Virus record (IMG/VR): IMGVR_UViG_3300032286_000719
Location: 1 to 64,000 of that record
DNA from: a virus
Direction: 5' to 3' (one strand)
Length of the DNA stretch: 64,000 bases
Part shown: positions 3,990 to 61,735 of the stretch, one piece after another
How the letters are laid out: every line of letters begins with the position of its first letter
Position numbering within the stretch: position 1 is the first letter of the stretch
Notes under the pieces: generated by a model
Seen by the model: only the letters and a program-made list of their open reading frames with translations
Database searches by the model: none
Told to the model about the DNA's origin: nothing
Translations under genes and position numbers: made by a program

Positions 3990-4085
3990 ATGGCACAATG
4001 TTCAGGATGTGGAGCTAATGTAGGCTGTGGATGTCAGCTGAAAAATGGAATGTGTGCAGCGTGTGCTGCAAAAGCAAATAAATAA
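3990..4085 (+). CDS. 31-aa Cys-rich microprotein MAQCSGCGANVGCGCQLKNGMCAACAAKANK (not in ORF track)
   Basis: The ATG is 2 nt after the previous stop, the ORF fills the gap exactly, and it has 6 Cys in CxxC/CxC/CxxC spacing. Confidence 0.7.
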   Translation: MAQCSGCGANVGCGCQLKNGMCAACAAKANK

Positions 4086-4095
4086 AATTGTTATT

Positions 4096-6837: not shown

Positions 6838-8082
6838 ATGGCATATCCTTTTTTACCAGTTAATCCTTGCTGTACAGACGTAGTCTTAAATAGTCCTTGT
6901 GGATGTAGTTCTACAATTTCTAATAGTGGTTGTGGACAAAATCCATGTGGAACTAATGTTATTCTATCTAGCAATGTACGTTATGATGGTCCTGTATTGG
7001 ATTGCATTATAGTTGAGCCATGTGATACACTTAATGTAATATTGCAAAAGATTGATGAGATTATATGTAATCTACTTGTTCAGATTAACACATTGAATAT
7101 TCAAGTGGCAAACATCACCACTCAAATAATCAATATTAATAATGAGATAATCAATATTAATACTACATTAGAAGGATGTTGTGGTGCTACAACTACTACT
7201 ACTACTACTAGTTCAACTAGCACTACAACTACCACAACCACTCCAATACCAACTACTACAACTACAAGTTCTAGTTCAACTAGCACTAGCACATCTACTA
7301 GTACGTCTACATCAACTAGCACTTCTACAACAACAAGTTCAAGTACGAGTACAACAACAACTACAACTACAGCTGGACCTACCACTACTACAACAACAAC
7401 AGAATTTTCTGCAGCTTGTACATGTTTAAATTTTAACATAACTCAAGAAGATATAGATGCTGCTACAGGAAATGTTATCCATGGAAATAATATAGTTAGT
7501 ATAAGTGTTGGAAAAGGTGCAGTATGTGGAGGTGGTGATTTTGGTCAGAATGTTACCTCTGCAGGAACAATAGGTATATGTATTGAAACTTCAGAAATAG
7601 GTACAGCTGATATACTTTATTATGTAAACGATATCCCTGTTTTCTACCCAGCTACAACAAGTACATATGACGTGTTATACTCTGCTTGTACAACAAATGG
7701 TGAATGTGTACCTACAACTACTACCACTAGTTCTAGTAGTACAAGTACATCTACGAGTACAAGTACCTCGACTAGTACATCGACCAGTACTACAACTAGC
7801 ACAACTACAATACCTCCAACTACAACAACAACTACCACTGTAATTTATTCAGCAGAATTTTCTATAGGAACTGCAAATAATGCTTTAGCTTGTCTTGAAA
7901 CTGTTGCAGTGATAACGTTATACTCAACTAGTTCTACGTTTGCTTTTGGAAGTTTTGTATACACTGATGCAGGATTAACAACTATATTTGTTGGAGGAAA
8001 TTTATATTATAAAAATATATCAGCAAATAATGTAATCAGAGTGCCTAATTCTGGACAGATTAACTCAACTAGCTCTTGTTAA
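6838..8082 (+). CDS. Cys-rich fibre/decoration protein with coiled coil and two Thr/Ser tracts
   Basis: VRYDGPVLDC..CDTLNVILQKID anchor module, heptad repeat, T/S tracts, and a C-terminal AC...VYTD...GGNLYY tip module. Confidence 0.65.
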   Translation: MAYPFLPVNPCCTDVVLNSPCGCSSTISNSGCGQNPCGTNVILSSNVRYDGPVLDCIIVEPCDTLNVILQKIDEIICNLLVQINTLNIQVANITTQIININNEIININTTLEGCCGATTTTTTTSSTSTTTTTTTPIPTTTTTSSSSTSTSTSTSTSTSTSTSTTTSSSTSTTTTTTTAGPTTTTTTTEFSAACTCLNFNITQEDIDAATGNVIHGNNIVSISVGKGAVCGGGDFGQNVTSAGTIGICIETSEIGTADILYYVNDIPVFYPATTSTYDVLYSACTTNGECVPTTTTTSSSSTSTSTSTSTSTSTSTSTTTSTTTIPPTTTTTTTVIYSAEFSIGTANNALACLETVAVITLYSTSSTFAFGSFVYTDAGLTTIFVGGNLYYKNISANNVIRVPNSGQINSTSSC

Positions 8083-8117: not shown

Positions 8118-8957
8118 ATGGCTGATTGTCCTCAAATAAATAATACAACAATAATAGGAACGAGTGCTGTCTCATATGATAGCACTCCACTTCCTTGTAC
8201 AGATGTAAAAGCATGTGATAATCTTAATACAATCCTTACTAAGTTTGATAATGTTATATGTTCTGCCATAAACAGTGTAAACATCCTTAAAGAAGAGATA
8301 ACAAATATCACTGAGGACTTAATGATGATTACAGAAGAGATAGAGGATATAAATGATCAAATCTTTATATGTTGTCCTATTTGTGATTTTACAATAACTG
8401 CCACTGAATTACCTGTATGTGATTTCACTGCAAGTGCTACTGAATTACCTACATGTAATTTTACAGGAAATGTTAATCAAGTTCCAGATCCTACAACTAC
8501 TACAACTAGTAGTTCTACTTCTACTTCTACTAGTACAAGTACAAGCACGTCTACAAGTACTACTAGTACAAGTACATCTACTTCAACAAGTACTAGCACT
8601 TCGACTAGTACATCAACTTCAACAAGTAGTAGTACTACTACAACAACCACCACCCCTACACCTGGTGAGTTAGGACAGTGTTGGTCATTGACTTGGCAAA
8701 ACGACGAAGAACCACCTTCAACGTTATACGCTCGATATACTAATTCATCAGGCAATGAAGTAGATACACAAATAACTAATCTTCCTAGGACAGTAGGAAC
8801 TTTTGAAACCACAGCATATATCTGTTCATATTACCCTAATGCACCTAACTGTGTAAGTTATGCTGTAAGCCCACCACTTATTGTAACTTGTGACCCATAT
8901 ACTTGGTTTACTCAATTTAATACGTGTACGAACAACTTAAGTTGTCTCCAAACATAA
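8118..8957 (+). CDS. Cys-rich fibre/decoration protein with 12-aa repeats and a Thr/Ser tract
   Basis: Same anchor (VSYDSTPLPC..CDNLNTILTKFD), then CDFTxxATELPx repeats and a T/S tract at about 8492-8660. Confidence 0.65.
   Translation: MADCPQINNTTIIGTSAVSYDSTPLPCTDVKACDNLNTILTKFDNVICSAINSVNILKEEITNITEDLMMITEEIEDINDQIFICCPICDFTITATELPVCDFTASATELPTCNFTGNVNQVPDPTTTTTSSSTSTSTSTSTSTSTSTTSTSTSTSTSTSTSTSTSTSTSSSTTTTTTTPTPGELGQCWSLTWQNDEEPPSTLYARYTNSSGNEVDTQITNLPRTVGTFETTAYICSYYPNAPNCVSYAVSPPLIVTCDPYTWFTQFNTCTNNLSCLQT
8382..8486 (+). repeat. Three tandem 36-nt (12-aa) repeats: CDFTITATELPV / CDFTASATELPT / CNFTGNVNQVP
   Basis: Directly visible in both DNA and protein. Confidence 0.85.
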
Positions 8958-9025: not shown

Positions 9026-10258
9026 ATGATAATAGTAACAACATTAGTTATTCCTCCTGGAGGTGATGTAGGGCCATTTAATCTTTATTCAGATTCAGAT
9101 GGGTACACAGTTCCATTTGCAACGAATGTGTCTGCTGCTGCATTGCAAGCTGGATACAGTTCAACTGTACCTAATAATGCTACAATAATTAGAGTGGTGT
9201 CTACTGGATTATGTACAAACTTTATTGATTTAAATATAAATTTAATTACTACAACAACAACAAGTAGTTCTTCAACAAGCACAAGCACTACTAGCACTAG
9301 TACATCTACTAGTAGTAGTACTACAACAACAACAACAACGTGTTGTGTTGCTCAGAACGTAACAATTGGAATTCAAACTTGGTCGTCTTGTAACTTAAAT
9401 GTTTCTACATATAGTGATGGAACTCCAATTCCTGAAGTACAAGATGATGCTGAATGGGCAGCTTTAACCACAGGTGCTTGGTGCTATTTTAATAACGATC
9501 CTGCACTTGGATGCGTTTATGGTAAATTATATAACTGGTATGCAATGGTTGGTATATGGAATGAAGCCTCAAAAACAAATCCTGCATTGAGAAAACAGCT
9601 TGCTCCAGTAGGGTATCGTGTACCATCTATGAATGGTGATGTTGATACTTTAAGTACTTTTTTAGGTGGTTATACTGTTGCAGGTGGTAAAATGAAAACT
9701 ACAAATGCATCCCCTACTCCTATTTCAGGTGATGGATATTGGTATTCACCAAATGTTGGAGCTACTAATAGTAGTGGATGGTCAGCACTTGCAGGAGGTT
9801 GGAGATCTCATGGTACTGGTAGTTTTGGATTTGAACATTTTGAAGGTAAGTGGTGGACTGATTTGGGTGTTGAGAGTGGTGTTACTGAGAATTTTTCACT
9901 TTTTTATTTACAAGCTTCTTTAAATAAGGAAAATTATTTTAATGGGTTTAAAAGTCAAGGTTCTTCTATTAGAGTATTAGCAGATGACACTGGATTAATT
10001 ATAGGACTAAGGTCAAATACTAGTCTTGATTCAGGAGATGCTTGTCTTGAAGAGTTACTAACTTATTGTTATATTGACAACAATGGAATAGAGGGAAATT
10101 GGTATAGAGTGTACACTAACTCTGCAAGGGACCCATTTGATGGAAATGATAAATTTTGGCATTTACTAGATATAAATGCAGGAATTGAAGTTAGTGCTCA
10201 AATTGATACTGATGGATTTATTACACAACCTGTTACTGTTTGTATTCCACCACCATAA
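9026..10258 (+). CDS. Decoration protein: GPF anchor domain, Thr/Ser linker, Fib_succ_major (FISUMP) domain and tip module
   Basis: VTIGIQTWSSCNLNV...GAWCYFNND...YGKLYNWYA...GGKMK...ATNSSGWSALAGG...SIR is the Fibrobacter succinogenes major-domain signature. Confidence 0.75.
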   Translation: MIIVTTLVIPPGGDVGPFNLYSDSDGYTVPFATNVSAAALQAGYSSTVPNNATIIRVVSTGLCTNFIDLNINLITTTTTSSSSTSTSTTSTSTSTSSSTTTTTTTCCVAQNVTIGIQTWSSCNLNVSTYSDGTPIPEVQDDAEWAALTTGAWCYFNNDPALGCVYGKLYNWYAMVGIWNEASKTNPALRKQLAPVGYRVPSMNGDVDTLSTFLGGYTVAGGKMKTTNASPTPISGDGYWYSPNVGATNSSGWSALAGGWRSHGTGSFGFEHFEGKWWTDLGVESGVTENFSLFYLQASLNKENYFNGFKSQGSSIRVLADDTGLIIGLRSNTSLDSGDACLEELLTYCYIDNNGIEGNWYRVYTNSARDPFDGNDKFWHLLDINAGIEVSAQIDTDGFITQPVTVCIPPP

Positions 10259-10322
10259 ATTAAACTGAATACAATAAGTAAACTATTTATAAATAAAATA
10301 ATAATATAACAAACCAAATAAT

Positions 10323-10925
10323 ATGACAGTATTAATAACATTAACAGTAGCAGGAACAGACTCTGGACCATTTAATCTTTATTCAAATCTTGATGGATAT
10401 ACATCAGCTTTTGAATCAGGAGTGAGTAGAGCAGCTCTTTTAGCAGGATACGCTTCTGCATTAGTTCCTGATTTCACAACTATTGTAAGAGTACAATCTG
10501 TAGGGGATTGTAACAATCATATCGACATACAATTGTATGCTATTAGTACAACAAGTACTAGCACAAGTAGCACAAGTAGTACAACAACTACTAGTACAAC
10601 TGTTGCTAATACATGTTATGAATTTGAAAGTGATCCTTACACCACTACATTTTCAGCTCAATATATAGATTGTAATGGTGTTGTTCAAACAGCTAATGAT
10701 ACATGTTTATCTCCACCTTGTACATATACATTGTGTGGATTTGCTGTATTATCTAGTAGTTTACCTATAAATACTGTAGGAGTTTGTGGAACAACCACTA
10801 CTACAACTACATCTACTCCAACTACCACGACCACTAGTTCTAGTTCTAGTTCAACTACTACAAGCACAACTACTATAGTTGGTCCAACAACAACAACAAC
10901 AACTACTCCTGTTACTATTCTTTAA
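10323..10925 (+). CDS. Decoration protein: GPF anchor domain, Thr/Ser linkers and a small YxDCxG domain
   Basis: N-terminus is paralogous to 9026 and 10945 (GPFNLYS...TTIVRVQSVGDC). Confidence 0.7.
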   Translation: MTVLITLTVAGTDSGPFNLYSNLDGYTSAFESGVSRAALLAGYASALVPDFTTIVRVQSVGDCNNHIDIQLYAISTTSTSTSSTSSTTTTSTTVANTCYEFESDPYTTTFSAQYIDCNGVVQTANDTCLSPPCTYTLCGFAVLSSSLPINTVGVCGTTTTTTTSTPTTTTTSSSSSSTTTSTTTIVGPTTTTTTTPVTIL

Positions 10926-10944
10926 TCTTATAATAAATAAAAAC

Positions 10945-11976
10945 ATGACAATATTGATAACATTGACTTTACCACCTGGAGGTGACGCAGGTCCTTTCAA
11001 TCTTTATTCAAACACAGATGGGTATGTTACTCCATTTGCAACAAATATATCAGCTTCAGCTTTAATTGCTGGATATACAGCTACAAACGTGCCTAATGGA
11101 ACCACTACAATAAGAGTGCAGTCTGTAGGTGTATGTACAAACTTTGTTAATGTACAAGTTAATGTACTTCCTACTACAACAACAACTAGTAGTACATCTA
11201 CAAGTAGCACATCTACCACTACAAGTACTAGCACTACAGCTGTTCCAACTACCACTACAACTAGTAGTAGTTCAACAAGCACATCAACAACAAGCACATC
11301 AACATCAACCAGCACCAGTACATCTACAAGTTCAACTACTACTAGTACAACTACAGCAACCCCTACAACAACCACTACCACTACTCCAAGTGAGAATAAC
11401 TTAATTATTAATAATCAACAGTCAAGTGTTATAGTAGAAGGAATAACAGCAGGACCTTGTCCTGTAGCAAGTAGTGTACCTTTTGGTCCAGGAGGTGTTG
11501 ATTATGGATCTATTGGAACTTGTAATTCTGATATTGGTTTGGTATTTTCTGGAGTTTCTCCTGGTGATCATTGTATGTCACTTATTATAAATGGTATAAT
11601 AGAAGATGAGGTAACCTTTAATACAAATGGAACACATACATTTACTTTAACTCCACCAATTGCTAGTAATGATATAGTTGTAATAGTAATTAGAGATGGT
11701 GAATGTTTATCAGCTAGAGAAGGAGTTGTTTCAGCAACATCTGATCCATCAGATCCTTGTTCAATACCAATGACAATCCCTTGTTGGGTAGATGGTAATA
11801 CAGATATTGTCAATGGATTAACTGTATATACAGATATGTCAATGCTACAAGCATATAAATTTGTAGGTGATGGAGATTTTTATCACATAATATTAAATGA
11901 TTTTGGTCAGGATTACAGTACAATAATAACTAATGCTGGACTAATAGATACAGCAGTACCAGGAATATGTTTATAA
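10945..11976 (+). CDS. Decoration protein: GPF anchor domain, Thr/Ser linker and two tip domains
   Basis: The likely start is ATG 10945 (MTILITLTLPPGGDAGPFNLYS); paralogue of the 9026 and 10323 N-termini. Confidence 0.7.
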   Translation: MTILITLTLPPGGDAGPFNLYSNTDGYVTPFATNISASALIAGYTATNVPNGTTTIRVQSVGVCTNFVNVQVNVLPTTTTTSSTSTSSTSTTTSTSTTAVPTTTTTSSSSTSTSTTSTSTSTSTSTSTSSTTTSTTTATPTTTTTTTPSENNLIINNQQSSVIVEGITAGPCPVASSVPFGPGGVDYGSIGTCNSDIGLVFSGVSPGDHCMSLIINGIIEDEVTFNTNGTHTFTLTPPIASNDIVVIVIRDGECLSAREGVVSATSDPSDPCSIPMTIPCWVDGNTDIVNGLTVYTDMSMLQAYKFVGDGDFYHIILNDFGQDYSTIITNAGLIDTAVPGICL

Positions 11977-15567: not shown

Positions 15568-18500
15568 ATGGCTGAAGAACAATCAAGAAATAACATAAAT
15601 CAAGAATCTAACACTGCAATTACTGGTCTAAACTTAGATAGCTCTGTAAATCAAGTTAAACAAGGTTCATTGACCTATGCGTTAAATGCTGCAATTGAAA
15701 ATTTTGATGGTAATATAGTTAACTATCAAAATGAAATGGGTAATGATTTATGTGTCACCTTTCCAAAATCTTATTTACTAATTGGTACTCATTTCATTAA
15801 TGAGAAGAATAAACATATATTCTTTCTTTTAAATCCTTTGACATCACTGAGTCAAATTGGATATATGGAAAACAATGATTGTATCTATCATGTATTAGTA
15901 GAAGCTGCATGTCTTAATTTTAACGTTGATCATCCTATACATAAAGTTGTACATAAGATTACAAACTGTACAATAGAGTTATATTGGACAGATGGATTAA
16001 ACCCAAGAAGATGGTTAGACATAAATAATATTCCTTATTTATTGACACCTGGAGCAGATCTTTGTAACCCTGAGTTTACAAATGAATTAGATTGTAATCA
16101 AATTAAGATACAACCTAACTTTAGTATTCCTCAACTTAAAGTTGTAGATGTTAGATCTGGAGGAGAACTTATATCAGGAACTTATCAGTTTGCTATACAA
16201 TATTGTGATCCTGTAGGTAATCCATACACTTCTTATTACTCAGTAACAAACCCCACTCCTATAGTAGATTTAACAATAGCCACTGTAAATTTCAACACTC
16301 CTGTAAGTAAATCTATTGTAGTGGATATAACAGATCTTGATGTTACAGGACAATTTCAATACTATAATATAGCTGTAATTAAAACAATCAACAATGTTTC
16401 ATCTGTTGAGTTAGTAGGTACATATTTTATTGAAGAAAACTACGATCAAATTATATACACTGGAGAGGATCAAACTGCAACACAACTAACTATTGCTGAT
16501 ATATTTGAGAAATTTCCTTATTACGAAATAGCACAAGATATTACATCTGTACAAGATATTCTTGTATGGGACAACCTTACATCTATTAGTAGAATCAACT
16601 ATCAATCAATAGCTAGTCAAATAACTGTTCAATGGGAATCATATAGAATACCTGCTAATGAAAGTTATGAAGATGAGCTCAATGCTACAAACCTACGTGG
16701 TTATCTACGTGATGAGGTGTATGCACTTGAGATTGTGTTCCTATTAAAGAATGGAAAACAAACAGATGGTTTTCATATTCCTGGAAGAGAACAAAACTTT
16801 AATGAGTTTTCTCAACCAGATATACCTGATACGAGTGCTGACTTTATTGGTGAACCTGATTACTATTCAGGTGGTGTAGGATATAGTCCTTATTGGAAAA
16901 TATATAATACAGCTTCTGTTACTGGATCTTCTCCAGGATATTCTCCTGACCCTGCTTACAAAGGACCATATCAATATGGCCAAATGGCGTATTGGGAATC
17001 TACAGAAGAGTATCCTTGTAATGAAGATCTTTGGGGTGATCTTGCTGGTAAAAATATTAGACACCACAAATTTCCAGATGTATTAGTTTCTCCTATAAAT
17101 GAAACAAAGATATTCTCAGGTCCTACAACAATGGTGATGGGTAATGATGCTGTATTTCCTATTGGTATTAAGATAGATATTGGTCAGATATCAAATCTTA
17201 TATACAACTCTAATTTAACTGATGATGAAAAGAGTGAGATAGCAGCGTTTAAAATCATTAGAGGTAACAGAGGAGTACATAAATCTATTATAGCTAAAGG
17301 AATACTTCGTAATGTTAACTCTTATGAAAGAGAAGACCAATATTATTATTATCCAAATTACCCATATAATGAAACAGGTCCTGACGATGATCCATTCTTA
17401 AATGAGACGAACAATGCATGGACAGACATATGTGAACCATGGGAGATTAATGTATTAGAATTTAATCTACCTGAAGGTCCTGGTCCATATACATATGCAG
17501 AAGTTGAATACACTAGTTGTAACAATGATAAAATTGGTAAAAAACAATACAATAAAATAGGTAAACATACATTGTGCTCTATTACTAGACCTGTACCACA
17601 AGGAAATGGACCATTCAATAGAATGAGACTTAATAGAGCAAGTCTTGAGACTCCTGTTCCAGGAACAAAGATGAATGTGTCTCCAATGAATTATGATATT
17701 TATAAACTTCAAGTTAAGACAAATTTTCTTGGACTTCCTAGAGCTGGATGGAGAGCTCAATGGCAAGATACAGTGACAGGAATAACTGATTTTTGGGTAT
17801 GCTGTGGAAGAAGTTATTTTGTTAATTGTATAAAAGGAACTCGACCAGTTAGCATACAGAATAATACTGATAGAATTTCTGGACCAGAAGAAATTAGAGT
17901 TTCTGATTGTAAAACTGAAGCTCCTCAAAAACCTGTATCTGCTAAACCAGAACTAGCATACAGACAAGTATTTAATTCTCCAGAAACATCTTTTGGACAA
18001 CCTTTCTTAGGTGATATATTAAAGATTGAGAATGTAATATTTGGTAAAGGACTTGGTCACTTTGTTGAAGTGAGAGGTAATGCTAAATATAAATTGCTTA
18101 CAGAACAAGCACAAAGAGATGCTCTTCAGGCTTCACAAAATATTGCTAATCTTGGTGGTTTCAGTGCAACAGCAATGTTTACTGTATACCAATCATATCT
18201 AACTATTTATATTAATGGTATTACAAGAAGAAACTATGCTTATTCATATAACTCAATAGCTGATTATAATTATAATGTAGGAGTGGGTAATAACATTACA
18301 ATGAATGGTGTTACAGGTATCAAACAAAGACCACTTGACATTAAGAGATATCTTATCCCTGGTGTACAATCTGTTGGTGATACAATTGTTGTTAATGGTG
18401 TTACTAAAAACGCTCCCATCAACAATTATAGAAGAGAGTCAACTGTTTATTTAAGAACATCGCTTTTTAGAGAAGATGGAGTTACAGCAGTACCACCATT

Positions 18501-20973
18501 ACCATTACCAAGTAACAGTCCTAGTATGATTATAGGAGGTTCTTCTATCGTTACAGAAAAATCTAGAATAACTATTGGATCAAGTGGAGCATGTGCTACC
18601 CCAGCTAGAGAACAAGATATTAGCGTTGTATCTTATTATGCGTCATTGAAAAATATAGTGGTGAATCAATGGGGACAAATATATTCATACAGAACAGTAG
18701 ACACAGGATTCCAATCACCTATTAATCCTACCTCAACAGGAAATTCAACAGTGTTTGGTGGAGATACATTTATAGGTAGGTTTACATTCAAAACAAAGCT
18801 TCCATTCTTTATTGATAACAGAGTGAATGCTCCTGATGATTCAGATATATTCTATGACGAGATTGGTAATATAGCCTATCCAAAATACTGGCACTCTGCT
18901 AGATCCATTTTAAAAGACTACACTGTAGTATCAGGAGCAGTAGGAACATTATCTAATATTATTTCATACAAAGCACATAACTTTGATTGTCCTAATAATC
19001 AAGAACCTGGACCAACATCAACTCCTTCTTTCCCAGGACAAGATAATCCTAATAGAACATTCTATAATGGATACTTCTATTTGTTTGCTTATGGTATTCC
19101 TAACTTCTATTGTGAGAGTTCTTACAATACAGACTTAAGACAAGCGTTTAATAATAGAGAAGGTGATTTCTGGCCACACGTATCAACAGGTATTCCTGAT
19201 GATTGGGTACAAGAGAACTACGTATCAATTGCGTTTGACAATACGTACAACTACAATGTAACATTCTCTAAACAAAACAAAGAGAATAACTTTACTCATT
19301 TACCTGCAGACTGGAAGAAAGACTTCTGTTTCACATACTATCCATTCAGAACTATCTATTCAGATTCTCAAAATACAGATGCTGATAATAGAGTGAATAG
19401 CTGGTTGACATATAGAGCAGTTTCATATTTTGATTTTCCTCAAAACTATGGTAACTTAACATCACTAGATGGTATTCAGAATAAAGCTATTCTTGCTAGA
19501 TTTGAGAATAAGTCATTGTTATACAATACATTATTAACAATTGATACAAGTAATCCACAAGCTGCTTATTTAGGTAACCCTACGTTATTTAGAAGTTCTC
19601 CTCCAGTTGATTTTGCTGAAACAGATCTTGGATACGTAGGAAGTCAGAATAAGTTCTTATTGAAGATTCCACAAGGACAAATCACTGTAGATGCTAAAAG
19701 AGGACAAGTCTTTTTACTTGGTAGTGAAGGAGCAAAAGATCTTACATCGTTCTCTTCAGGAATGAACAACTTCTTTACAAACCATTTAGCTTTTGAAATA
19801 CTAAGATATTTTCCAAGTAAGGATGTAATGGTAAATGGTAAACTAGTTACTATCCCTGGAGTTGATATAGATAATCATTTCAATGGTATTGGATTACATG
19901 GTGTATACGATAACAGATATGAAAGAATTATTATAACTAAAATTGATTACATTCCTGTAGACTCTAATGTTAAGTATGATTATGTAACAAAAGAATTCTA
20001 TGTAGAAGAACCTATCGTTGGAAGTGCTCCACTTAGAACAATTGTAAGTTTACAAGATCCTGATTACTTCTGTAACAAGTCTTGGTCAGTTTCTTATAAC
20101 TTCAATACACAAAGCTGGATATCATTCCATAGCTATATTCCTAATTTCTACATAGGAGAAAATAACTTCTTCTATTCAGGAATTAATGGATGTTGCGATG
20201 GTTTTGATGTTGATTCTAATTCTACTTTTAATTTTGTGGCAGGAAAAATTATTCCTGACCCTCCAAAAACAACAACCACTACCACTACTATTAATGAACC
20301 AATTACCACAACAACAACCACTACTGGATTTAGTTGTGATTTGTCTGGAAATATTATAATAACTGATTGTTCCTTAGATGGTACAGGTGTGATCACAGTG
20401 GAACCAGCACCTCCACCTTGTGAGAGACCTACAGATTTAACAGAGAATGACTTTATTATTGGATATACAATAACATCTATACCAATAACTGTAGTGTCTA
20501 CAGCTAGTCAATCAGATGCTTGTAATGCAATTAATTATTTAAATACTATTCCACCAAACACAACAGTTGATGAAATAACAGTAAGTTACTCAGATCTTCA
20601 AATTGGATCAGTAATTTATGAAGGACCAAACTTCCAAACAGATTGTACAGTTATTTCTGATGGATGGTATTTTACAAATGAAAGTTCAGCTAGTGGAATA
20701 GTTTATGAAGTGATAAGTGGAATAATTACACAAATTGGAAATTGTTTCCCAACTACGACCAGTACTACTACTGAATCCTTCTGTACATCATATAGAGCTA
20801 TTAAAACAACTGCTGGTGTAACATCAATAACCTTTACAAATTGTTTAGGACTTTCAGAAACTGTAATTGTTGGAAATGAAAATGGTGGTGCTTCATCAGT
20901 ATCTTTCTGTGCAAAATGTTGTATATCTGCTCTGCCATCAGATGTAACACTAACTAATAATGGAATTTGTTAA
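15568..20973 (+). CDS. Tail stabilization / muzzle protein, N-terminal part, with appended Thr-linker and Cys-rich tip modules
   Basis: 1801 aa with GLNLD...YALNA...LYWTDGLNPRR...GTYQFAIQY...GYLRDEVYA...IRHHKFP...FGGDTFI...WISFHSY, hallmarks of crAss tail stabilization proteins. Confidence 0.8.
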   Translation: MAEEQSRNNINQESNTAITGLNLDSSVNQVKQGSLTYALNAAIENFDGNIVNYQNEMGNDLCVTFPKSYLLIGTHFINEKNKHIFFLLNPLTSLSQIGYMENNDCIYHVLVEAACLNFNVDHPIHKVVHKITNCTIELYWTDGLNPRRWLDINNIPYLLTPGADLCNPEFTNELDCNQIKIQPNFSIPQLKVVDVRSGGELISGTYQFAIQYCDPVGNPYTSYYSVTNPTPIVDLTIATVNFNTPVSKSIVVDITDLDVTGQFQYYNIAVIKTINNVSSVELVGTYFIEENYDQIIYTGEDQTATQLTIADIFEKFPYYEIAQDITSVQDILVWDNLTSISRINYQSIASQITVQWESYRIPANESYEDELNATNLRGYLRDEVYALEIVFLLKNGKQTDGFHIPGREQNFNEFSQPDIPDTSADFIGEPDYYSGGVGYSPYWKIYNTASVTGSSPGYSPDPAYKGPYQYGQMAYWESTEEYPCNEDLWGDLAGKNIRHHKFPDVLVSPINETKIFSGPTTMVMGNDAVFPIGIKIDIGQISNLIYNSNLTDDEKSEIAAFKIIRGNRGVHKSIIAKGILRNVNSYEREDQYYYYPNYPYNETGPDDDPFLNETNNAWTDICEPWEINVLEFNLPEGPGPYTYAEVEYTSCNNDKIGKKQYNKIGKHTLCSITRPVPQGNGPFNRMRLNRASLETPVPGTKMNVSPMNYDIYKLQVKTNFLGLPRAGWRAQWQDTVTGITDFWVCCGRSYFVNCIKGTRPVSIQNNTDRISGPEEIRVSDCKTEAPQKPVSAKPELAYRQVFNSPETSFGQPFLGDILKIENVIFGKGLGHFVEVRGNAKYKLLTEQAQRDALQASQNIANLGGFSATAMFTVYQSYLTIYINGITRRNYAYSYNSIADYNYNVGVGNNITMNGVTGIKQRPLDIKRYLIPGVQSVGDTIVVNGVTKNAPINNYRRESTVYLRTSLFREDGVTAVPPLPLPSNSPSMIIGGSSIVTEKSRITIGSSGACATPAREQDISVVSYYASLKNIVVNQWGQIYSYRTVDTGFQSPINPTSTGNSTVFGGDTFIGRFTFKTKLPFFIDNRVNAPDDSDIFYDEIGNIAYPKYWHSARSILKDYTVVSGAVGTLSNIISYKAHNFDCPNNQEPGPTSTPSFPGQDNPNRTFYNGYFYLFAYGIPNFYCESSYNTDLRQAFNNREGDFWPHVSTGIPDDWVQENYVSIAFDNTYNYNVTFSKQNKENNFTHLPADWKKDFCFTYYPFRTIYSDSQNTDADNRVNSWLTYRAVSYFDFPQNYGNLTSLDGIQNKAILARFENKSLLYNTLLTIDTSNPQAAYLGNPTLFRSSPPVDFAETDLGYVGSQNKFLLKIPQGQITVDAKRGQVFLLGSEGAKDLTSFSSGMNNFFTNHLAFEILRYFPSKDVMVNGKLVTIPGVDIDNHFNGIGLHGVYDNRYERIIITKIDYIPVDSNVKYDYVTKEFYVEEPIVGSAPLRTIVSLQDPDYFCNKSWSVSYNFNTQSWISFHSYIPNFYIGENNFFYSGINGCCDGFDVDSNSTFNFVAGKIIPDPPKTTTTTTTINEPITTTTTTTGFSCDLSGNIIITDCSLDGTGVITVEPAPPPCERPTDLTENDFIIGYTITSIPITVVSTASQSDACNAINYLNTIPPNTTVDEITVSYSDLQIGSVIYEGPNFQTDCTVISDGWYFTNESSASGIVYEVISGIITQIGNCFPTTTSTTTESFCTSYRAIKTTAGVTSITFTNCLGLSETVIVGNENGGASSVSFCAKCCISALPSDVTLTNNGIC

Positions 20974-57270: not shown

Positions 57271-58296
57271 ATGGCAATACCATCAAGAGGAATAGGCTGG
57301 AGTACAGAAGATAACCTGTTATGGCAAATCTCTAAGCAATTAGAAAGACTAACGCAAGTTACAGGTAATAGTGTAAGTGGATCTCAAACACTTGCACAAA
57401 CACTTGTTATTGGAAACAATACAGGTGGAACTGATATACTATTAAATAATGATGATGCAATACAGTTAGAGAATAATTCTTCAATTAAAAAAGGAACTTA
57501 TGACTTTGGTCAAAATGGTGGTGTTTCTCGTATATGTGGAGTCGATTATGAGGATATGTGGCAAGGTGGAATTAGACACGTTTTTGATAACAATGGATAT
57601 ATTAGAAATTCAACAAATGGTTTTAATACAGTTCCTAATACCAGTTTTGATGATACTTTAAGATTTAAAGTAGGTTCATTTTGGACTTTAGATGATGGTA
57701 CTACTTACAAATGTATTGACAATAGTACAGGAGCAGCTGTTTGGGAATTATATTCTTCACCACCTAAATATAAAGTGTATACAGCTTTATTAACACAGAG
57801 TGGTTCTAGTAATCCTCAAGATATTAACTCAGGAAATTTAACTGTAGGTGTAACATATTTCATCAATAATAATGTGTTAGGAGATTTTACAAATGTAGGA
57901 GCACCTAATAATGATAATGGTACATATTTTGTGGCAACAGGTACAACTCCAGCTGACTGGGGTATAAATATTAGTGGTGATACACTTACTTTTGATACAG
58001 CAACTCCAATAGTAAGAATATTAGAAAACACTATTGGTGATGTTTGGTTTGTATATTTAGACCTTGGGAATTACGCTTGTTATTGCTCAACGCCTTTATT
58101 TACTGTTAATAAAACAACATTAAATAGTGAGATATTTTATAGTAACACTAACGACCAAATGTGCTCTTTAATTAGTAGCACAGGTGATTTTGACAGCCAA
58201 TCTGTAGTTTTTTCATCTGTAAGAAGTTCAGGGTCAATACAATTTGAAAATAACGCATTGCAAGATACATTTTTTGAAATAAGAGTGTACAACTAA
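57271..58296 (+). CDS. Virion fibre/decoration protein, LLWQISKQL anchor family member 1
   Basis: MAIPSRGIGWSTEDNLLWQISKQLERL N-terminus; C-terminal KYKVYTALLTQSG...LENTIG...EIRVY domain. Confidence 0.65.
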   Translation: MAIPSRGIGWSTEDNLLWQISKQLERLTQVTGNSVSGSQTLAQTLVIGNNTGGTDILLNNDDAIQLENNSSIKKGTYDFGQNGGVSRICGVDYEDMWQGGIRHVFDNNGYIRNSTNGFNTVPNTSFDDTLRFKVGSFWTLDDGTTYKCIDNSTGAAVWELYSSPPKYKVYTALLTQSGSSNPQDINSGNLTVGVTYFINNNVLGDFTNVGAPNNDNGTYFVATGTTPADWGINISGDTLTFDTATPIVRILENTIGDVWFVYLDLGNYACYCSTPLFTVNKTTLNSEIFYSNTNDQMCSLISSTGDFDSQSVVFSSVRSSGSIQFENNALQDTFFEIRVYN

Positions 58297-58314
58297 TAAT
58301 ATATAAAGAAAGAA

Positions 58315-59301
58315 ATGGCTATACCTAGTAGACAAATTGGTTGGAGCACACAATCTAACTTACTATGGCAGATATCTAAACAATTAGAACGTCTGACATG
58401 TGTAACTGCTGGTGGATGTGGCACAACTACTACTACAACTACTACTACTACAGGATGTTTAAATTGTGTAGAAGAACCTGTTGTTATTGGCACACAAACT
58501 TGGGACAAATGTAATTTAAATGTAACTACTTATGCTAATGGAGATCCTATCCCAGAGGTAACAGATCCTGCTGTATGGACTAGTTTAACTACTGGAGCTT
58601 GGTGCTATTATGACAATGACCCTCTAAATGAACCTATATATGGAAAACTCTACAACTGGTATGCATTAACAGATCCAAGAGGATTAGCTCCTGTAGGTAA
58701 AAGTATTCCAACAGATGAAGACTGGACCACTTTAACCACTTTCTTAGGAGGAGAATCAATTGCTGGAGGATCAATGAAAGAGACAGGACTATGTCATTGG
58801 GCAGATCCAAACACAGATGCTACAAACAGTAGTGGTTTTACAGCTCTTGGAGGAGGTTATAGAGACATTGATAGCACATTCTTAGAGTTTAATACCTATG
58901 GTGTATGGTGGGCTTCGACAGAGATAAATTCAGGTGCTTATCTTCGAATTTTATTTTACAGCGATGGTAGTGTAAACAGATCAGGTAGTGATAAAAGGCA
59001 TGGTTTCTCAGTTAGATGCTTAGTAGATAATACAACTACTACTACTACAACATTAAATCCTTTAATTAATACAAATTATACATTTATTAATTGTATAGCA
59101 CCTTGTGGTGGTGGATGTAGAAGACCTCTTTCTTATTATGATGTTTGGATGATACAATCATGTATAGACTCTTGGCCATTGATAGGATGTGCAGTTTGGT
59201 TAGATGAAGCAGGAACAACACCATTTCCTTCAGGTAATTATAATAATAATGACATTAATTGTATTGAAATAACAGATGGTGTGGTAACCAATATTGTTTA
59301 A
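58315..59301 (+). CDS. LLWQISKQL anchor, Thr linker, Fib_succ_major domain and Cys-rich tip
   Basis: VIGTQTWDKCNLNV...YGKLYNWYA...GFSVRC FISUMP signature. Confidence 0.75.
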   Translation: MAIPSRQIGWSTQSNLLWQISKQLERLTCVTAGGCGTTTTTTTTTTGCLNCVEEPVVIGTQTWDKCNLNVTTYANGDPIPEVTDPAVWTSLTTGAWCYYDNDPLNEPIYGKLYNWYALTDPRGLAPVGKSIPTDEDWTTLTTFLGGESIAGGSMKETGLCHWADPNTDATNSSGFTALGGGYRDIDSTFLEFNTYGVWWASTEINSGAYLRILFYSDGSVNRSGSDKRHGFSVRCLVDNTTTTTTTLNPLINTNYTFINCIAPCGGGCRRPLSYYDVWMIQSCIDSWPLIGCAVWLDEAGTTPFPSGNYNNNDINCIEITDGVVTNIV

Positions 59302-59314
59302 AATAAAAATAAAA

Positions 59315-60190
59315 ATGAGTATAGCACCAAGACAAATAGGACAGAGTACAAGAAGTAATCTTCTTTGGCAAATATCTAAACAACTTGAAAGATTGATATG
59401 TGTTAGAGCTGGTGGATGTAATACTACAACTACATCAACAACAACCATAACACCTACCACCACCACTACTACCACTCCTGCTCCAACATCAGAATGGTAT
59501 GAAGTAACTGAGTGTTATACTACAAATGTTATTTATAGTGTTGAGTATCCTGTAGGAACATTTCAATTAAATGATGGTGTTACTTATTATCTTGGTGGTG
59601 ATTGGACAATAACAAATATATTTTATACAGATCCAGGAGGTGCACAATTTGGTTTAAGTAACATATTTCAGATAGGATGTCCAACTACAACCACAACAAC
59701 AACAACAATTACACCATGTATTGAAGTGTCATTTTTAGCTATTACTGATTGTCCTGATTTAGGATATGCTACAGTGGAATACACAGATTGTAATGGAATA
59801 TATCAAACAGGTAATGTTGTTGCTGGAAGTGGAAATTCTTTAAAAGTTTGTACATTAACTGCAGGTATAACTCCTGCATTTACATGTGGAGATGGAGAGA
59901 TTACCTATGGATCAGCTTGTACTACTACAACTACTACTACAGCTGCACCTGTAGTTAATAGCACAAATAAATTTGTTAATTGTGCAGGACCATGTTTTGA
60001 ATCTGAATGTGTACCACTTAATTATTTTAATGTATGGATGACACAAGCATGTATAAATTCATGGCCAACTATTGGTTGTGAAGTATGGTTGGATTCTGAA
60101 GGAACAATACCATTTCCTAGTGGAGCTTATAATAATGGTGAGGGTGGTTGTGTATATATAGAAAATGGCACAATAACTGATATTCCTTAA
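59315..60190 (+). CDS. LLWQISKQL anchor with three small Cys-rich domains separated by Thr linkers
   Basis: The likely start is ATG 59315 (MSIAPRQIGQSTRSNLLWQISKQL); the last domain is paralogous to the C-terminus of 58315. Confidence 0.7.
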   Translation: MSIAPRQIGQSTRSNLLWQISKQLERLICVRAGGCNTTTTSTTTITPTTTTTTTPAPTSEWYEVTECYTTNVIYSVEYPVGTFQLNDGVTYYLGGDWTITNIFYTDPGGAQFGLSNIFQIGCPTTTTTTTTITPCIEVSFLAITDCPDLGYATVEYTDCNGIYQTGNVVAGSGNSLKVCTLTAGITPAFTCGDGEITYGSACTTTTTTTAAPVVNSTNKFVNCAGPCFESECVPLNYFNVWMTQACINSWPTIGCEVWLDSEGTIPFPSGAYNNGEGGCVYIENGTITDIP

Positions 60191-60223
60191 TATAAAAAAA
60201 TAAAAATTAAAACCAACTACATT

Positions 60224-61240
60224 ATGAAAGAATTAAAATTTATCCAAGCTTGTCCTAGTGACATTTATTACACATGGCAAGTGAATCTATGGATGGAGAG
60301 TCTTAAAGAAATAGGACACTCTGACAAAGCAATCAATCTAATCTTTACACCTAAAGGAAGAGAGAATAGAGATAAGTGGAAACAGATAGAAGATCTATAT
60401 CCAGAAGCAGAGTTTCATTATTACGAAGATGAGGATAATCTGAATCGATTGATTGGAATATATATTCCTGTATTAAGACCATACGTTCTTTGGAAACATT
60501 TTAAGAAACATCCAGAACTAAGTGATTGTGCTATATTCTATTGTGATTCAGATATTCTTTTTATGAAAGATTTTAATGTGGATCAGTTTTTGGAAGATGA
60601 TGTTAACTACTTATCAGATACAAACAGTTATATTAACGCTAAGTATTTTGATAGCAAGGTGCATCAAGTGTTACCAGAGAAACTGGAAGAATATAAAGGA
60701 AGAGATGTTCTTGCTGAGATAGCAAGTGTTGTTGGAATAAGCAGAGAAATAGCTGAAGCTAATAATGATCATTCAGGAGGAGCTCAATATCTATTAAAGA
60801 ATGTAGATGCTGACTTCTGGAGTAAGGTGATGAATGATTGTATTCTTATAAGAACCTATTTACAACAAGTGAATAGAGAATTCTTTAAAGATGAGAACAG
60901 TGGATTCCAAAGTTGGTGTGCAGACATGTGGGCTGTTCTTTGGAACATATGGGTTAGAGAAAAAGAAACAAGAGTGGTGCCTGAACTAGCATTTGCTTGG
61001 GCAACAGATCCTATCACAAAACTTGATACCCACACCATCTTTCATAATGCAGGCATAGTGTCTGAGACAGGAAATGGTTATCCAGCTTTCTATAAAGGTA
61101 AATATCACATGGGAACAGATCCAACAAAAGATCCTAACCTAGATATGATTCTTGAGAACGAACAATCAAAAAAATATTGCACGTGGTTTTATGCCACTAA
61201 ACTAAACGAAATCAAAAACAAATATAACCTAGACTATTAA
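60224..61240 (+). CDS. GT-A fold glycosyltransferase resembling peptide O-glycosyltransferases (GT96/GT95-like)
   Basis: IFYCDSDILF (DxD at 60545-60553), YYTWQ, YIPVLRP, GGAQY, WCADMW and a C-terminal IFH. Confidence 0.7.
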   Translation: MKELKFIQACPSDIYYTWQVNLWMESLKEIGHSDKAINLIFTPKGRENRDKWKQIEDLYPEAEFHYYEDEDNLNRLIGIYIPVLRPYVLWKHFKKHPELSDCAIFYCDSDILFMKDFNVDQFLEDDVNYLSDTNSYINAKYFDSKVHQVLPEKLEEYKGRDVLAEIASVVGISREIAEANNDHSGGAQYLLKNVDADFWSKVMNDCILIRTYLQQVNREFFKDENSGFQSWCADMWAVLWNIWVREKETRVVPELAFAWATDPITKLDTHTIFHNAGIVSETGNGYPAFYKGKYHMGTDPTKDPNLDMILENEQSKKYCTWFYATKLNEIKNKYNLDY

Positions 61241-61256
61241 CCCTAAATTTTAAACA

Positions 61257-61490
61257 ATGGGAAGCATTAATTCAAGACCTTTAAAGGCTTTTGTTAGATT
61301 CGATGGATCTGGCAGAATAGTTGCAGGAAGCTTAATCCTTAGAAAAAATAAGCCCAAGGTGGGTAAGTGGAAAGAAATACAAGCATATGAGTGCTGTTTT
61401 CTTACTACCACTACAACCACTACAGTAGCTCCTACTACTACTAGCACAACAACTGCAAGAGCTACAACAACAACTACAACAACAAGATAA
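61257..61490 (+). CDS. Mini-mucin 1: LKAFVRFDGSGRI domain plus Thr tail
   Basis: 77 aa: a domain of about 45 aa ending ECC, then an almost pure Thr tail. Confidence 0.7.
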   Translation: MGSINSRPLKAFVRFDGSGRIVAGSLILRKNKPKVGKWKEIQAYECCFLTTTTTTTVAPTTTSTTTARATTTTTTTR

Positions 61491-61492
61491 TC

Positions 61493-61735
61493 ATGGCTAG
61501 AAATAACAATAACAAGCTTAAAGCTTTTGTACGTTTTGATGGATCAGGACGTATTATACCAAGTAGTTTAATTGTACAAGCATTTAAACCTGCTGTAGGT
61601 AACTATGTAGAGATAGATGCTAAAGAGTGTTGCAACTATACAACCACTACAACATCAACAACTGCTGCCCCTACTACAACTACTACAACTACTGTAGCAC
61701 CAACCACCACTAGTACGACAACACCAGCTCCTTAA
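61493..61735 (+). CDS. Mini-mucin 2: LKAFVRFDGSGRI domain plus Thr tail
   Basis: 80 aa; paralogue of the previous gene. Confidence 0.7.
   Translation: MARNNNNKLKAFVRFDGSGRIIPSSLIVQAFKPAVGNYVEIDAKECCNYTTTTTSTTAAPTTTTTTTVAPTTTSTTTPAP

What the first reader, a model, noticed from the sequence alone, without database searches (positions are those of the whole stretch)
58315..61735. Candidate phage-encoded virion O-glycosylation ('phage mucin') system: GT96/GT95-like glycosyltransferase embedded among Thr-tract substrates
Seen: a soluble 338-aa DxD protein (60224-61240) is flanked by two Thr-linker proteins upstream and two mini-proteins downstream that are about 40% poly-Thr. Twelve genes in the window carry such tracts (2139, 4096, 6838, 8118, 9026, 10323, 10945, 15568, 58315, 59315, 61257, 61493). 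Knowledge: its motifs line up in order with plant peptidyl-serine alpha-galactosyltransferase (SERGT1, GT96) and Hyp-arabinosyltransferase (GT95) as I recall them: C..YYTWQ ~ C..YFDWQ, YIPVLRP ~ YPAINKP, FYCDSD ~ ILDAD, SWCADMW ~ GWISEMY. Those enzymes glycosylate hydroxy-amino-acid-rich peptides. Virion glycosylation by phage glycosyltransferases is known in some mycobacteriophages, but I know of no description for crAss-like phages. Inference: the phage glycosylates its own capsid/tail decorations in the cytoplasm, producing stiff bottle-brush linkers or a glycan coat for protease resistance, receptor reach, or shielding from grazers and adsorption.
Basis: partly seen in the sequence, partly recalled or inferred. 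Interest (0 to 1): 0.93.

Follow-up and report, generated by a model that had tools for sequence, protein, structure and literature searches.

The report
Phage sugar-transferase paired with poly-threonine proteins
A freshwater crAss-like phage encodes an unnamed sugar-adding enzyme among twelve particle proteins that carry threonine-only stretches; the same enzyme travels with such stretches in unrelated phages and both are missing from their relatives, so these phages very probably sugar-coat their own particles, which has been measured only for mycobacteriophages.

Summary
The window is the first 64 kb of a complete 112.8-kb crAss-like phage genome. Exactly the twelve genes listed carry poly-Thr or Thr/Ser tracts. 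All lie in the structural block, and the other 49 kb has none.

The 338-aa protein (60224-61240) has no Pfam family. It belongs to phrog_4417 (function unknown). Its model (pLDDT 97) is a GT-A fold closest to retaining GT8-clan enzymes such as glycogenin, UGGT, Skp1 alpha-GalT, LgtC and GlyE. The DxD motif (D108, D110) is invariant.

Of 11 phages with this enzyme, 10 have runs of six or more Thr, and the eleventh has TTV(K/A)P repeats. The tract-bearing gene usually sits directly beside the enzyme gene, often on capsid or tail-tube C-termini. None of 8 relatives without the enzyme has such runs.

The genome also carries a GT11-GT2-methyltransferase cassette, which varies across the clade.

Best reading: cytoplasmic O-glycosylation of Thr tracts on virion proteins. 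No glycan has been measured.

The enzyme is unrelated in sequence to the mycobacteriophage virion glycosyltransferases. The claimed GT95/GT96 kinship is unproven: there is no HMM match, only a language-model lead.

Earlier agents of this scan reached the same pairing on other genomes. I found no paper describing it.

The parts
60224..61240 (+). 338-aa soluble GT-A glycosyltransferase (phrog_4417) with DxD at D108/D110. Proposed initiating peptide O-glycosyltransferase.
61257..61490 (+). 77-aa mini-protein: a 47-aa N-terminal anchor module followed by a Thr-rich tail with no payload domain.
   Evidence: The anchor module recurs in 121 proteins of 50-660 aa in 69 of 80 clade loci.
61493..61735 (+). 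80-aa paralogue of the mini-protein (60% identical over the anchor) with a Thr-rich tail.
58315..59301 (+). 328-aa fibre-like protein: a 30-aa shared N-terminal anchor, poly-Thr, a Fib_succ_major domain, poly-Thr, then a Cys-rich C-terminal domain.
   Evidence: PF09603 at 1.6e-39. Tracts at residues 37-46 and 240-246. The anchor is shared with 57271 and 59315.
59315..60190 (+). 291-aa paralogue with the same N-terminal anchor, four Thr tracts and the same C-terminal domain as 58315.
57271..58296 (+). 341-aa paralogue that shares the N-terminal anchor but has no Thr tract.
   Evidence: 84% identity over residues 1-32 with 58315. No tract found.
2139..3332 (+). 397-aa highly conserved structural-block protein (candidate capsid protein, identity unproven) ending in a Thr-rich tail.
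   Evidence: Tail at residues 376-394. More than 3400 homologues exist, and all 120 listed keep the tail. The fold was not resolved (pLDDT 46). There is a weak Atlas lead to crAss_AuxCP.
4045..5682 (+). 545-aa protein with nine Thr or Thr/Ser linker tracts.
6838..8082 (+). 414-aa protein with nine Thr or Thr/Ser tracts. Its N-terminal region is shared with 8118.
8118..8957 (+). 279-aa protein with a long (TS)n/poly-Thr linker.
9026..10258 (+). 410-aa protein: a 75-aa anchor shared with 10323 and 10945, a Thr/Ser linker, then a Fib_succ_major-like domain (46% identical to that of 58315).
10323..10925 (+). 200-aa protein with the same 75-aa anchor and Thr tracts that run to the C-terminus.
10945..11976 (+). 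343-aa protein with the same 75-aa anchor, a long Thr/Ser linker and a distinct C-terminal domain.
15568..20973 (+). 1801-aa virion structural protein with three Thr tracts near the C-terminus.
   Evidence: phrog_37948 at 8.5e-106. Tracts at residues 1568-1735.

Best explanation
The gene at 60224-61240 encodes a soluble, metal-dependent GT-A glycosyltransferase of the retaining type.

Proposed mechanism (inferred): late in infection, in the host cytoplasm, it transfers a sugar from a host nucleotide-sugar onto the hydroxyl groups of the poly-Thr and Thr/Ser tracts of the phage's own particle proteins. These tracts are interdomain linkers in eight fibre-like proteins and C-terminal tails in four others, including the two anchor-plus-tail mini-proteins next to the enzyme gene.

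The first sugar is then probably extended and capped by accessory enzymes encoded a few kb away. In this genome these are a GT11, a GT2 and a methyltransferase. Across the clade they are a different, highly variable set.

The result would be mucin-like glycan brushes on the head and tail appendages.

Shown here: the fold, the conserved catalytic motif, and the cross-phylum genomic pairing of enzyme and Thr tracts. Inferred: that Thr is the acceptor, which sugar is used, and what the coat is for (linker stiffening and protease resistance, adhesion, or masking).

For: 2. Pairing within the clade. By the first ORF scan, 75 of 80 related contigs carry Thr-tract genes. In most of them the tract gene starts about 20 bp after the enzyme gene. 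The rate is 153 of 2173 ORFs in these contigs against 7 of 1006 in control viral DNA.

3. Pairing in unrelated phages.
- Enterococcus phiFL1A: Thr tails on the capsid and tail-tube proteins, with the enzyme gene directly after the tail-tube gene.
- Lactococcus 1706 and Clostridium phiCTP1: the same layout.
- Mammaliicoccus phage F1 and Arcanobacterium TPWB06.
- Enterococcus Planchet, Lactobacillus Iacchus and Chryseobacterium MA9V-3.
- Lactobacillus SAC12B: TTV(K/A)P repeats on the gene just upstream of the enzyme gene.
- Three of four metagenomic contigs found through poly-Thr codons have the tract gene immediately upstream of the enzyme gene.

4. Absence together.
- The four nearest relatives by terminase (Lbo-JY46, phi17:2, csAssE-Sib, cr50_1) have no such enzyme and no run of six Thr in 520 kb.
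- Tail-tube orthologues 50-60% identical to phiFL1A gp50 in Javan47, 315.6, phiJL-1 and cIP1 stop without a Thr tail, and those genomes lack the enzyme.
- Lacticaseibacillus R3.3 has both the tail and the enzyme.
- Tally: 10 of 11 phages with the enzyme have runs of six Thr, against 0 of 8 without it.

5. More glycan enzymes. A GT11 (1.2e-25), a GT2 (7e-12) and a weak methyltransferase match lie at 66180-68156 on the minus strand. In the clade this region holds five GT2 clusters, two Gly_transf_sug clusters, one GT6, one GT11, several methyltransferases and a hexapeptide acyltransferase.

6. No thymidylate-synthase-type hydroxymethylase is present for a DNA-sugar pathway.
Against: - No glycan has been measured on any of these proteins. 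All support is comparative and structural.
- Poly-Thr tracts are not exclusive to this enzyme. Of 36 viral records picked by a nine-Thr codon pattern, 32 lack it, against 38 of 39 controls. That difference is not significant, and most records are fragments.
- Thr/Ser/Pro-rich linkers work as plain flexible spacers in many secreted proteins.
- In Lactococcus 1706 and SAC12B a holin also carries a Thr-rich tail, so the targets may not be limited to virion proteins.
- In Herelleviridae (SAC12B, Iacchus) the enzyme gene lies in the replication and lysis region, not the structural module.
Confidence: 0.7

Rival explanations
1. The enzyme glycosylates a non-protein target, such as a host envelope glycan (LOS, O-antigen, teichoic acid or capsule) for superinfection exclusion or receptor masking. 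The Thr tracts are then only flexible spacers that happen to lie in the same late operon.
For: LgtC (LOS) and WbbM (O-antigen) are among the best structural matches. Phage glycosyltransferases that convert the serotype of their host are well known (general knowledge). In Herelleviridae the gene lies outside the structural module.
Against: The enzyme is soluble, with no membrane segment. It is conserved with Thr tracts in hosts whose envelopes are built very differently (Bacteroidota, Enterococcus, Lactococcus, Clostridium, Mammaliicoccus). In six lineages it sits immediately next to the tract-bearing gene. Orthologous tail-tube proteins lose the Thr tail exactly where the enzyme is absent. A spacer-only reading does not predict that.
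Confidence: 0.12
2. The protein is a non-catalytic or structural partner of the Thr tracts, for example an assembly chaperone or virion component with a glycosyltransferase-like fold that binds poly-Thr without transferring sugar.
For: In siphophages it occupies the slot between the tail-tube and tail-chaperone genes, where assembly factors are usually encoded.
Against: The DxD motif and the other candidate active-site residues (Q229, H274, K291) are invariant over 70 homologues down to 30% identity, as expected for an active enzyme. Fusions to other glycosyltransferase and methyltransferase domains and the accompanying GT and methyltransferase cassettes point to a glycan pathway.
Confidence: 0.05
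3. The enzyme glycosylates phage DNA (hypermodified bases) to evade restriction.
For: DNA glycosylation is the classical role of phage glycosyltransferases (T-even phages; general knowledge).
Against: No thymidylate-synthase-type hydroxymethylase is present in the genome, although the same search rings in 10 of 14 control genomes. No DNA glycosyltransferase appears among the 50 best structural matches. This reading does not explain the link with Thr tracts.
Confidence: 0.03

Closest known systems
Virion glycosylation of mycobacteriophages Che8, Corndog and Myrna (Freeman et al. 2023, Cell Host Microbe; the paper is not held here and is known to me through citing papers PMC12619734 and PMC12363180 and from memory)
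   Same: Phage-encoded glycosyltransferases act in the cytoplasm. O-linked glycans sit on C-terminal extensions of capsid and tail-tube subunits. Several glycosyltransferases plus a methyltransferase work together: Che8 gp108 is a GT2 plus Methyltransf_24 fusion, and this genome has separate GT2 and methyltransferase genes.
   Different: There is no detectable homology: hhalign of the family profile against Che8 gp109 and gp110 gives probability below 1%. Che8 has no run of five or more Thr on its forward strand. Here the acceptor is a homopolymeric Thr tag or linker. The hosts here are Bacteroidota and Firmicutes, not Actinobacteria. Nothing has been measured here.
Cytoplasmic glycosylation of serine-rich repeat adhesins of Gram-positive bacteria (for example the GT8 enzyme GlyE acting on PsrP of Streptococcus pneumoniae, PDB 5GVV)
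   Different: No sequence-level relationship exists: there is no Pfam GT8 match. In that system the first sugar is added by a GT-B pair (GtfA/B; general knowledge). Here the acceptors are phage particle proteins and the repeats are Thr, not Ser.
Glycogenin, UGGT and Skp1 alpha-galactosyltransferase (GT8/GT24 retaining enzymes acting on proteins or protein-bound glycans)
   Different: Sequence identity is 8-9%. The enzyme here has about 80 extra residues and a different spacing of the His and Lys motif. The acceptors are unrelated.
Plant hydroxyproline O-arabinosyltransferase (HPAT, GT95) and peptidyl-serine alpha-galactosyltransferase (SGT1/SERGT1, GT96)
   Same: Both are peptide-directed enzymes that start O-glycans on hydroxy-amino-acid-rich, extensin-like repeats. 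Language-model neighbour clusters of this protein carry Pfam HPAT in 10% and 58% of their members.
   Different: No HMM-level match to PF23452 appears in this protein, in 70 relatives or in five phage genomes. No solved structure of those families is available to compare.
Chlorella virus PBCV-1 capsid glycosylation (A64R, PDB 2P6W)
   Different: The structural match is weaker. PBCV-1 glycans are N-linked to Asn in atypical sequons (general knowledge). It is a eukaryotic virus.

Membership tests
GT-A fold, DxD-dependent glycosyltransferase | Rossmann-like nucleotide-sugar-binding GT-A fold | tested here: met
GT-A fold, DxD-dependent glycosyltransferase | Conserved DxD metal-binding motif | tested here: met
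   D108 and D110 (DSD) are invariant in 70 homologues and in the 20-sequence set.
CAZy GT8 (sequence family) | Match to the Glyco_transf_8 profile | tested here: not met
   No Pfam family at E <= 1 for this protein, and none in 70 homologues at E <= 0.01. The similarity is at the level of fold only.
CAZy GT95 (HPAT) / GT96 (SGT1) | Match to the HPAT profile (PF23452) or demonstrable homology to plant members | tested here: inconclusive
   No PF23452 match, but the six-frame search had no positive control. Atlas neighbour clusters carry PF23452 in 10-58% of members at score 0.96-0.97. No plant sequence or structure was available for direct comparison.
CAZy GT95 (HPAT) / GT96 (SGT1) | Transfers the first sugar to a hydroxy amino acid of a repeat-rich peptide | not testable with these tools
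   This needs an enzyme assay or glycoproteomics.
Mycobacteriophage-type virion glycosylation system | Phage-encoded glycosyltransferase(s) homologous to Che8 gp108-110 | tested here: not met
   hhalign probability is 0.05-0.2% against gp110 and gp109. Those proteins are GT2- and GT25-like. Only the accessory GT2 and methyltransferase are of the same broad families.
Mycobacteriophage-type virion glycosylation system | Acceptor sites on C-terminal extensions of capsid and tail-tube subunits | tested here: inconclusive
   Candidate acceptor tails are present in Gram-positive carriers of this enzyme, where annotated capsid and tail-tube proteins end in Thr tails. In this genome four proteins have C-terminal tails and eight have internal linkers. 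The capsid identity of 2139-3332 is unproven.
Mycobacteriophage-type virion glycosylation system | Glycan detected on virion proteins | not testable with these tools
   No experimental data exist for any carrier of this enzyme family, as far as the library searches show.
phrog_4417 | Full-length match to the family profile | tested here: met
   E 1e-55, residues 4-321 on profile positions 1-287 of 293. The family is annotated 'unknown function'.
crAss-like phage | crAss-specific tail ring proteins and a related terminase and portal | tested here: met
   CrAss_Ring_2 (PF25702) at 2.9e-17 and CrAss_Ring_1 (PF24228) at 5.3e-12, both above their cut-offs. The terminase matches Cellulophaga, Flavobacterium and Crassvirales phages at 26-32% identity. 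The nearest is Leptolyngbya phage Lbo-JY46 at 40%.

The most novel reading that the evidence does not exclude
A single, widely spread enzyme family (phrog_4417) is the conserved initiator of a phage 'glyco-serotype' system. It puts the first sugar on genetically encoded poly-Thr tags. These tags can be appended to any particle protein: as C-terminal tails, as interdomain linkers, as anchor-plus-tail mini-proteins, or even through a frameshifted capsid extension. A hypervariable island of extending glycosyltransferases, methyltransferases and acyltransferases then diversifies the glycan between closely related phages, much as O-antigen loci do in bacteria. Virion glycosylation would then be common in phages of Bacteroidota and Firmicutes, including abundant freshwater crAss-like phages, rather than a speciality of actinobacteriophages.
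Probability: 0.4. Interest if true: 0.85.

Novelty: new variant of a known kind. Interest (0 to 1): 0.74.

Why it matters
Virion glycosylation by phage enzymes has been shown only for mycobacteriophages. As I recall that paper's abstract, it saw little evidence of it among other phages.

Here a different, unannotated enzyme family with thousands of homologues is tied to an easily recognised acceptor tag. The tie holds in phages of lactic acid bacteria, enterococci, clostridia and staphylococcus-like hosts, and in an abundant lake-water crAss-like clade.

If the tags are glycosylated, three things follow:
- Phage particles are far more often sugar-coated than assumed. That bears on phage therapy (antibody recognition, clearance), dairy phage adsorption, mucus or particle adherence, and the interpretation of cryo-EM maps and virion proteomics.
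- The system offers a compact, cytoplasmic, tag-directed O-glycosylation tool: one enzyme plus a poly-Thr tag.
- The claim is directly testable with cultured phages.

Tried and rejected
- Sequence searches of the enzyme against Pfam and against PDB sequences, both as a single sequence and as a profile, gave nothing useful.
- The HPAT profile search gave no match. A search from a distant family member (P0225) looking for HPAT-labelled relatives also gave none.
A 20-sequence alignment worked, but it returned only the phage's own clade.
- The reverse co-occurrence test was underpowered. The enzyme was found in 4 of 36 records picked by a poly-Thr codon pattern and in 1 of 39 records picked by an acidic-tract control pattern. 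Only about half of the pattern matches are in-frame Thr tracts, and most records are fragments. The adjacency within the positive records was more telling than the rate.
- Identification of 2139-3332 as the major capsid protein failed. The AF2 model had pLDDT 46. There was no PDB sequence match, no Pfam or PHROG match and no tblastn match in cultured phages. The only lead is a 0.88 Atlas hit to crAss_AuxCP.
- Freeman et al. 2023 could not be read because it is not held.
- Five literature searches for poly-Thr tags or this enzyme family in phages found nothing relevant.
- Metatranscriptome contigs from three lake or sediment studies, 90-95% alike, cover the enzyme and mini-protein genes. Contigs from RNA libraries cannot prove transcription, so I draw no expression claim from them.
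- Complex prediction was not run. An enzyme with its substrate tail is a poor case for that test.
- SAC12B first looked like an exception, with no run of six Thr. It was rescued by reading the neighbouring gene, which ends in TTV(K/A)P repeats.


Full report
**What the window is.** The window is bases 1-64000 of a complete 112,819-bp viral record with direct terminal repeats.
- Two proteins match crAss-specific tail ring families above their cut-offs: CrAss_Ring_2 at 13374-14102 (2.9e-17) and CrAss_Ring_1 at 14585-15559 (5.3e-12).
- The terminase and portal lie beyond the window. The terminase resembles Leptolyngbya phage Lbo-JY46 (40% identity), Cellulophaga phi17:2 and phi4:1, Flavobacterium phages and gut Crassvirales (26-32%).
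- Near-identical DNA is held mainly by lake-water and freshwater metagenomes.
The host is probably a freshwater member of Bacteroidota, but that is inference.

**The observation.**
- A pattern scan of all ORFs finds Thr or Thr/Ser tracts in exactly the twelve genes listed: 50 tracts covering 462 residues.
- All twelve lie in the plus-strand structural block. None of about 90 ORFs in the other 49 kb has a tract.
- The genome has 50 runs of six Thr codons, all on the coding strand, against one for the reversed control pattern.
- In 708 kb of viral contigs chosen by an unrelated pattern, only 7 of 1006 ORFs have such tracts.
- The tracts use all four Thr codons in mixed order, so they are kept by selection on the protein.
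- Four proteins carry the tract as a C-terminal tail (2139, 10323, 61257, 61493). Eight carry it as a linker between domains.

**The tract proteins are modular.** All-against-all BLAST shows three families of short N-terminal modules with exchangeable C-terminal payloads.
- One module of about 30 aa is shared by 57271, 58315 and 59315.
- One of about 75 aa is shared by 9026, 10323 and 10945.
- One of 47 aa is shared by the two mini-proteins.
- 58315 and 9026 carry the same Fib_succ_major domain (PF09603, 1.6e-39).
- The mini-protein module recurs in 121 proteins of 50-660 aa in 69 of 80 related contigs. It behaves as an anchor that can carry a Thr tail alone or a linker plus payload.
- The 397-aa protein at 2139-3332 has more than 3400 homologues, and all 120 listed keep the Thr-rich tail. 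Its role as a capsid protein could not be shown.

**The enzyme.** The 338-aa protein has no Pfam family and no membrane segment. It matches phrog_4417, annotated 'unknown function', over its full length.
- It has 2688 relatives in the 5.8-billion-protein set and 770 representatives at 50% clustering.
- With a 70-sequence alignment, AlphaFold2 gives a model of mean pLDDT 97.
- The order DxD, Gln, His, Lys recalls the GT8 active site. That is my inference from knowledge of LgtC and glycogenin, because the tools give no residue-level superposition.
- Longer family members are fused to GT2, GT6, Gly_transf_sug and methyltransferase domains, which places the family in glycan assembly.

**Does the enzyme travel with Thr tracts? 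Within the clade.** The gene is 64-95% identical in 80 related contigs. By the first ORF scan, 75 of them have Thr-tract genes. Most often this is a 60-90-aa mini-protein that starts about 20 bp after the enzyme gene.

**Outside the clade.** The association is striking.
- Enterococcus phage phiFL1A: the major head and major tail proteins both end in Thr tails, and the enzyme gene (gp51) lies between the tail-tube gene and the tail chaperones.
- Lactococcus phage 1706: the capsid-protease fusion and the tail-tube protein both end in a Thr run followed by HHD, and the enzyme gene is orf14.
- Clostridium phage phiCTP1: the portal, a small head protein and the tail tube carry Thr tails, and the enzyme gene is ORF19.
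- Mammaliicoccus phage F1 and Arcanobacterium phage TPWB06 show the same layout.
- Enterococcus Planchet: the enzyme follows the capsid gene.
- Lactobacillus Iacchus: the enzyme follows two small Thr-tailed proteins.
- Chryseobacterium MA9V-3: the enzyme follows two proteins with long Thr/Ser tracts.
- Lactobacillus brevis SAC12B has no run of six Thr, but the gene just upstream of its enzyme ends in seven TTV(K/A)P repeats.
- Of four further metagenomic contigs found through poly-Thr codons that also have the enzyme, three have the tract gene immediately upstream of it.

**Absence together.**
- The four nearest complete relatives by terminase have neither the enzyme nor a single run of six Thr in 520 kb.
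- Tail-tube orthologues 50-60% identical to phiFL1A gp50 in Streptococcus phages Javan47 and 315.6, Lactobacillus phiJL-1 and Pediococcus cIP1 end at the shared C-terminal motif without a tail. Those genomes lack both the enzyme and Thr runs. phiFL1A served as the positive control for the profile search, at 1.5e-84.
- The orthologue in Lacticaseibacillus R3.3 ends in six Thr. That genome has the enzyme elsewhere (2e-83), with another Thr run just upstream of it.
- The tally is 10 of 11 enzyme-positive phages with runs of six Thr (11 of 11 counting SAC12B's repeats) against 0 of 8 enzyme-negative relatives. By my own Fisher's exact calculation this is about 1e-4. The lineages are not all independent.

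**Limits of the association.** The reverse direction is weak.
- Among records picked by a nine-Thr codon pattern, 4 of 36 have the enzyme, against 1 of 39 records picked by an acidic-tract control pattern.
- Many in-frame poly-Thr proteins therefore occur in viral contigs without this enzyme, although most of those contigs are fragments.
- Poly-Thr is thus not exclusive to this family. Other transferases, or no modification at all, may apply there.

**Further glycan enzymes.** At 66180-68156 on the minus strand lie a GT11 (1.2e-25), a GT2 (7.2e-12) and a weak methyltransferase match that falls below the Pfam cut-offs.
- Across 54 clade contigs that reach this region, a GT2-like gene is found in 43 but at only 30% median identity. 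The methyltransferase is found in 14 and the GT11 in 2. The main enzyme is 74% identical on median.
- I clustered the minus-strand genes downstream into 61 clusters and scanned them. They include five GT2 clusters, two Gly_transf_sug, one GT6, one GT11, one TcdA/TcdB-like glycosyltransferase domain, several methyltransferase families and a hexapeptide acyltransferase.
- A conserved initiator with a variable set of extenders is the simplest reading. This is inference.

**Rival readings.**
- A host-envelope target is suggested by LgtC and WbbM among the fold matches. It does not explain why Thr tails on orthologous tail-tube proteins appear and vanish with the enzyme in hosts with unrelated envelopes.
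- DNA glycosylation is unlikely. No thymidylate-synthase-type hydroxymethylase is present and no DNA glycosyltransferase is among the fold matches.
- A non-catalytic role is unlikely given the invariant DxD motif and the fusions to other enzymes.
- I put about 0.7 on direct O-glycosylation of the Thr tracts.

**Comparison with what is known.**
- The nearest described system is mycobacteriophage virion glycosylation. I know it through citing papers and from memory, because the original is not held. The concept is the same.
- The enzymes are not the same. Che8 gp108-110 are GT2 plus methyltransferase, GT2-like and GT25-like. Two of them, gp109 and gp110, were compared with this family by hhalign and showed no profile similarity.
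- Che8 has no poly-Thr tags on its forward strand.
- Mechanistically the closest analogue may be the cytoplasmic glycosylation of serine-rich repeat adhesins in Gram-positive bacteria, which uses GT8 enzymes such as GlyE.
Atlas neighbour clusters carry Pfam HPAT in 10-58% of members, but no HMM match was found.

**Novelty and standing.** Five full-text searches found no description of this enzyme family or of poly-Thr tags as phage glycosylation sites. Earlier agents of this scan reported the same pairing on other genomes: Enterococcus, Clostridium and Lactobacillus phages and other crAss-like phages. I reproduced the core tests independently here. Against the literature I class it as a new variant of a known kind: virion glycosylation with a new enzyme family, a new kind of acceptor tag and new host ranges. 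It is still unmeasured.

Noticed in passing
L332:3740-3900 (Enterococcus phage Planchet, record 9890-10050): The poly-Thr segment upstream of the enzyme gene has no start codon. It lies in the -1 frame overlapping the end of the major capsid gene, just after a canonical slippery heptamer, CCCAAAA. A programmed -1 frameshift would give a fraction of capsid subunits a Thr-rich extension of roughly 50 residues.
   Followed up: partly
L084:964-1368 (Lactococcus 1706 orf3) and L330:18686-19303 (Lactobacillus SAC12B): The annotated holin or lysis proteins of two enzyme-carrying phages also end in Thr-rich tails (a TTTTTTT run, and ETTVEP repeats). The tag may therefore not be limited to virion proteins.
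   Followed up: no
window 57271-60190, 9026-11976 and 61257-61735: There are three families of short N-terminal anchor modules (about 30, 75 and 47 aa), each shared by two or three adjacent genes with different C-terminal payloads. This suggests cassette-like exchange of fibre tips.
   Followed up: partly
window 61738-62154: A 138-aa DUF5856 / Dps-like protein (PF19174 at 2.6e-13; phrog_858 'starvation-inducible regulator') lies directly after the mini-proteins. It is conserved in 46 of 54 clade contigs. SAC12B also encodes a Dps-like protein.
   Followed up: no
G000 66180-68156, minus strand (beyond the window): A GT11-GT2-methyltransferase cassette. The equivalent region in related contigs is a hypervariable island of glycosyltransferases, methyltransferases and an acyltransferase.
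   Followed up: yes
window 33137-46831: A single 4564-aa ORF with no PHROG match tried. The neighbouring ORFs of 1620, 1199, 909 and 1611 aa also lack family matches. These are probably the crAss-type cargo or virion RNA polymerase block.
   Followed up: no
window 12157-13371: An SbcD/Mre11-like 'DNA repair exonuclease' (phrog_704 at 1.2e-52) sits inside the structural block, between the fibre genes and the tail ring proteins.
   Followed up: no
window 60236-61640: Contigs from three independent lake or sediment metatranscriptome libraries, 90-95% alike, cover the enzyme and mini-protein genes. This is compatible with expression of relatives in nature, but it is not proof.
   Followed up: partly
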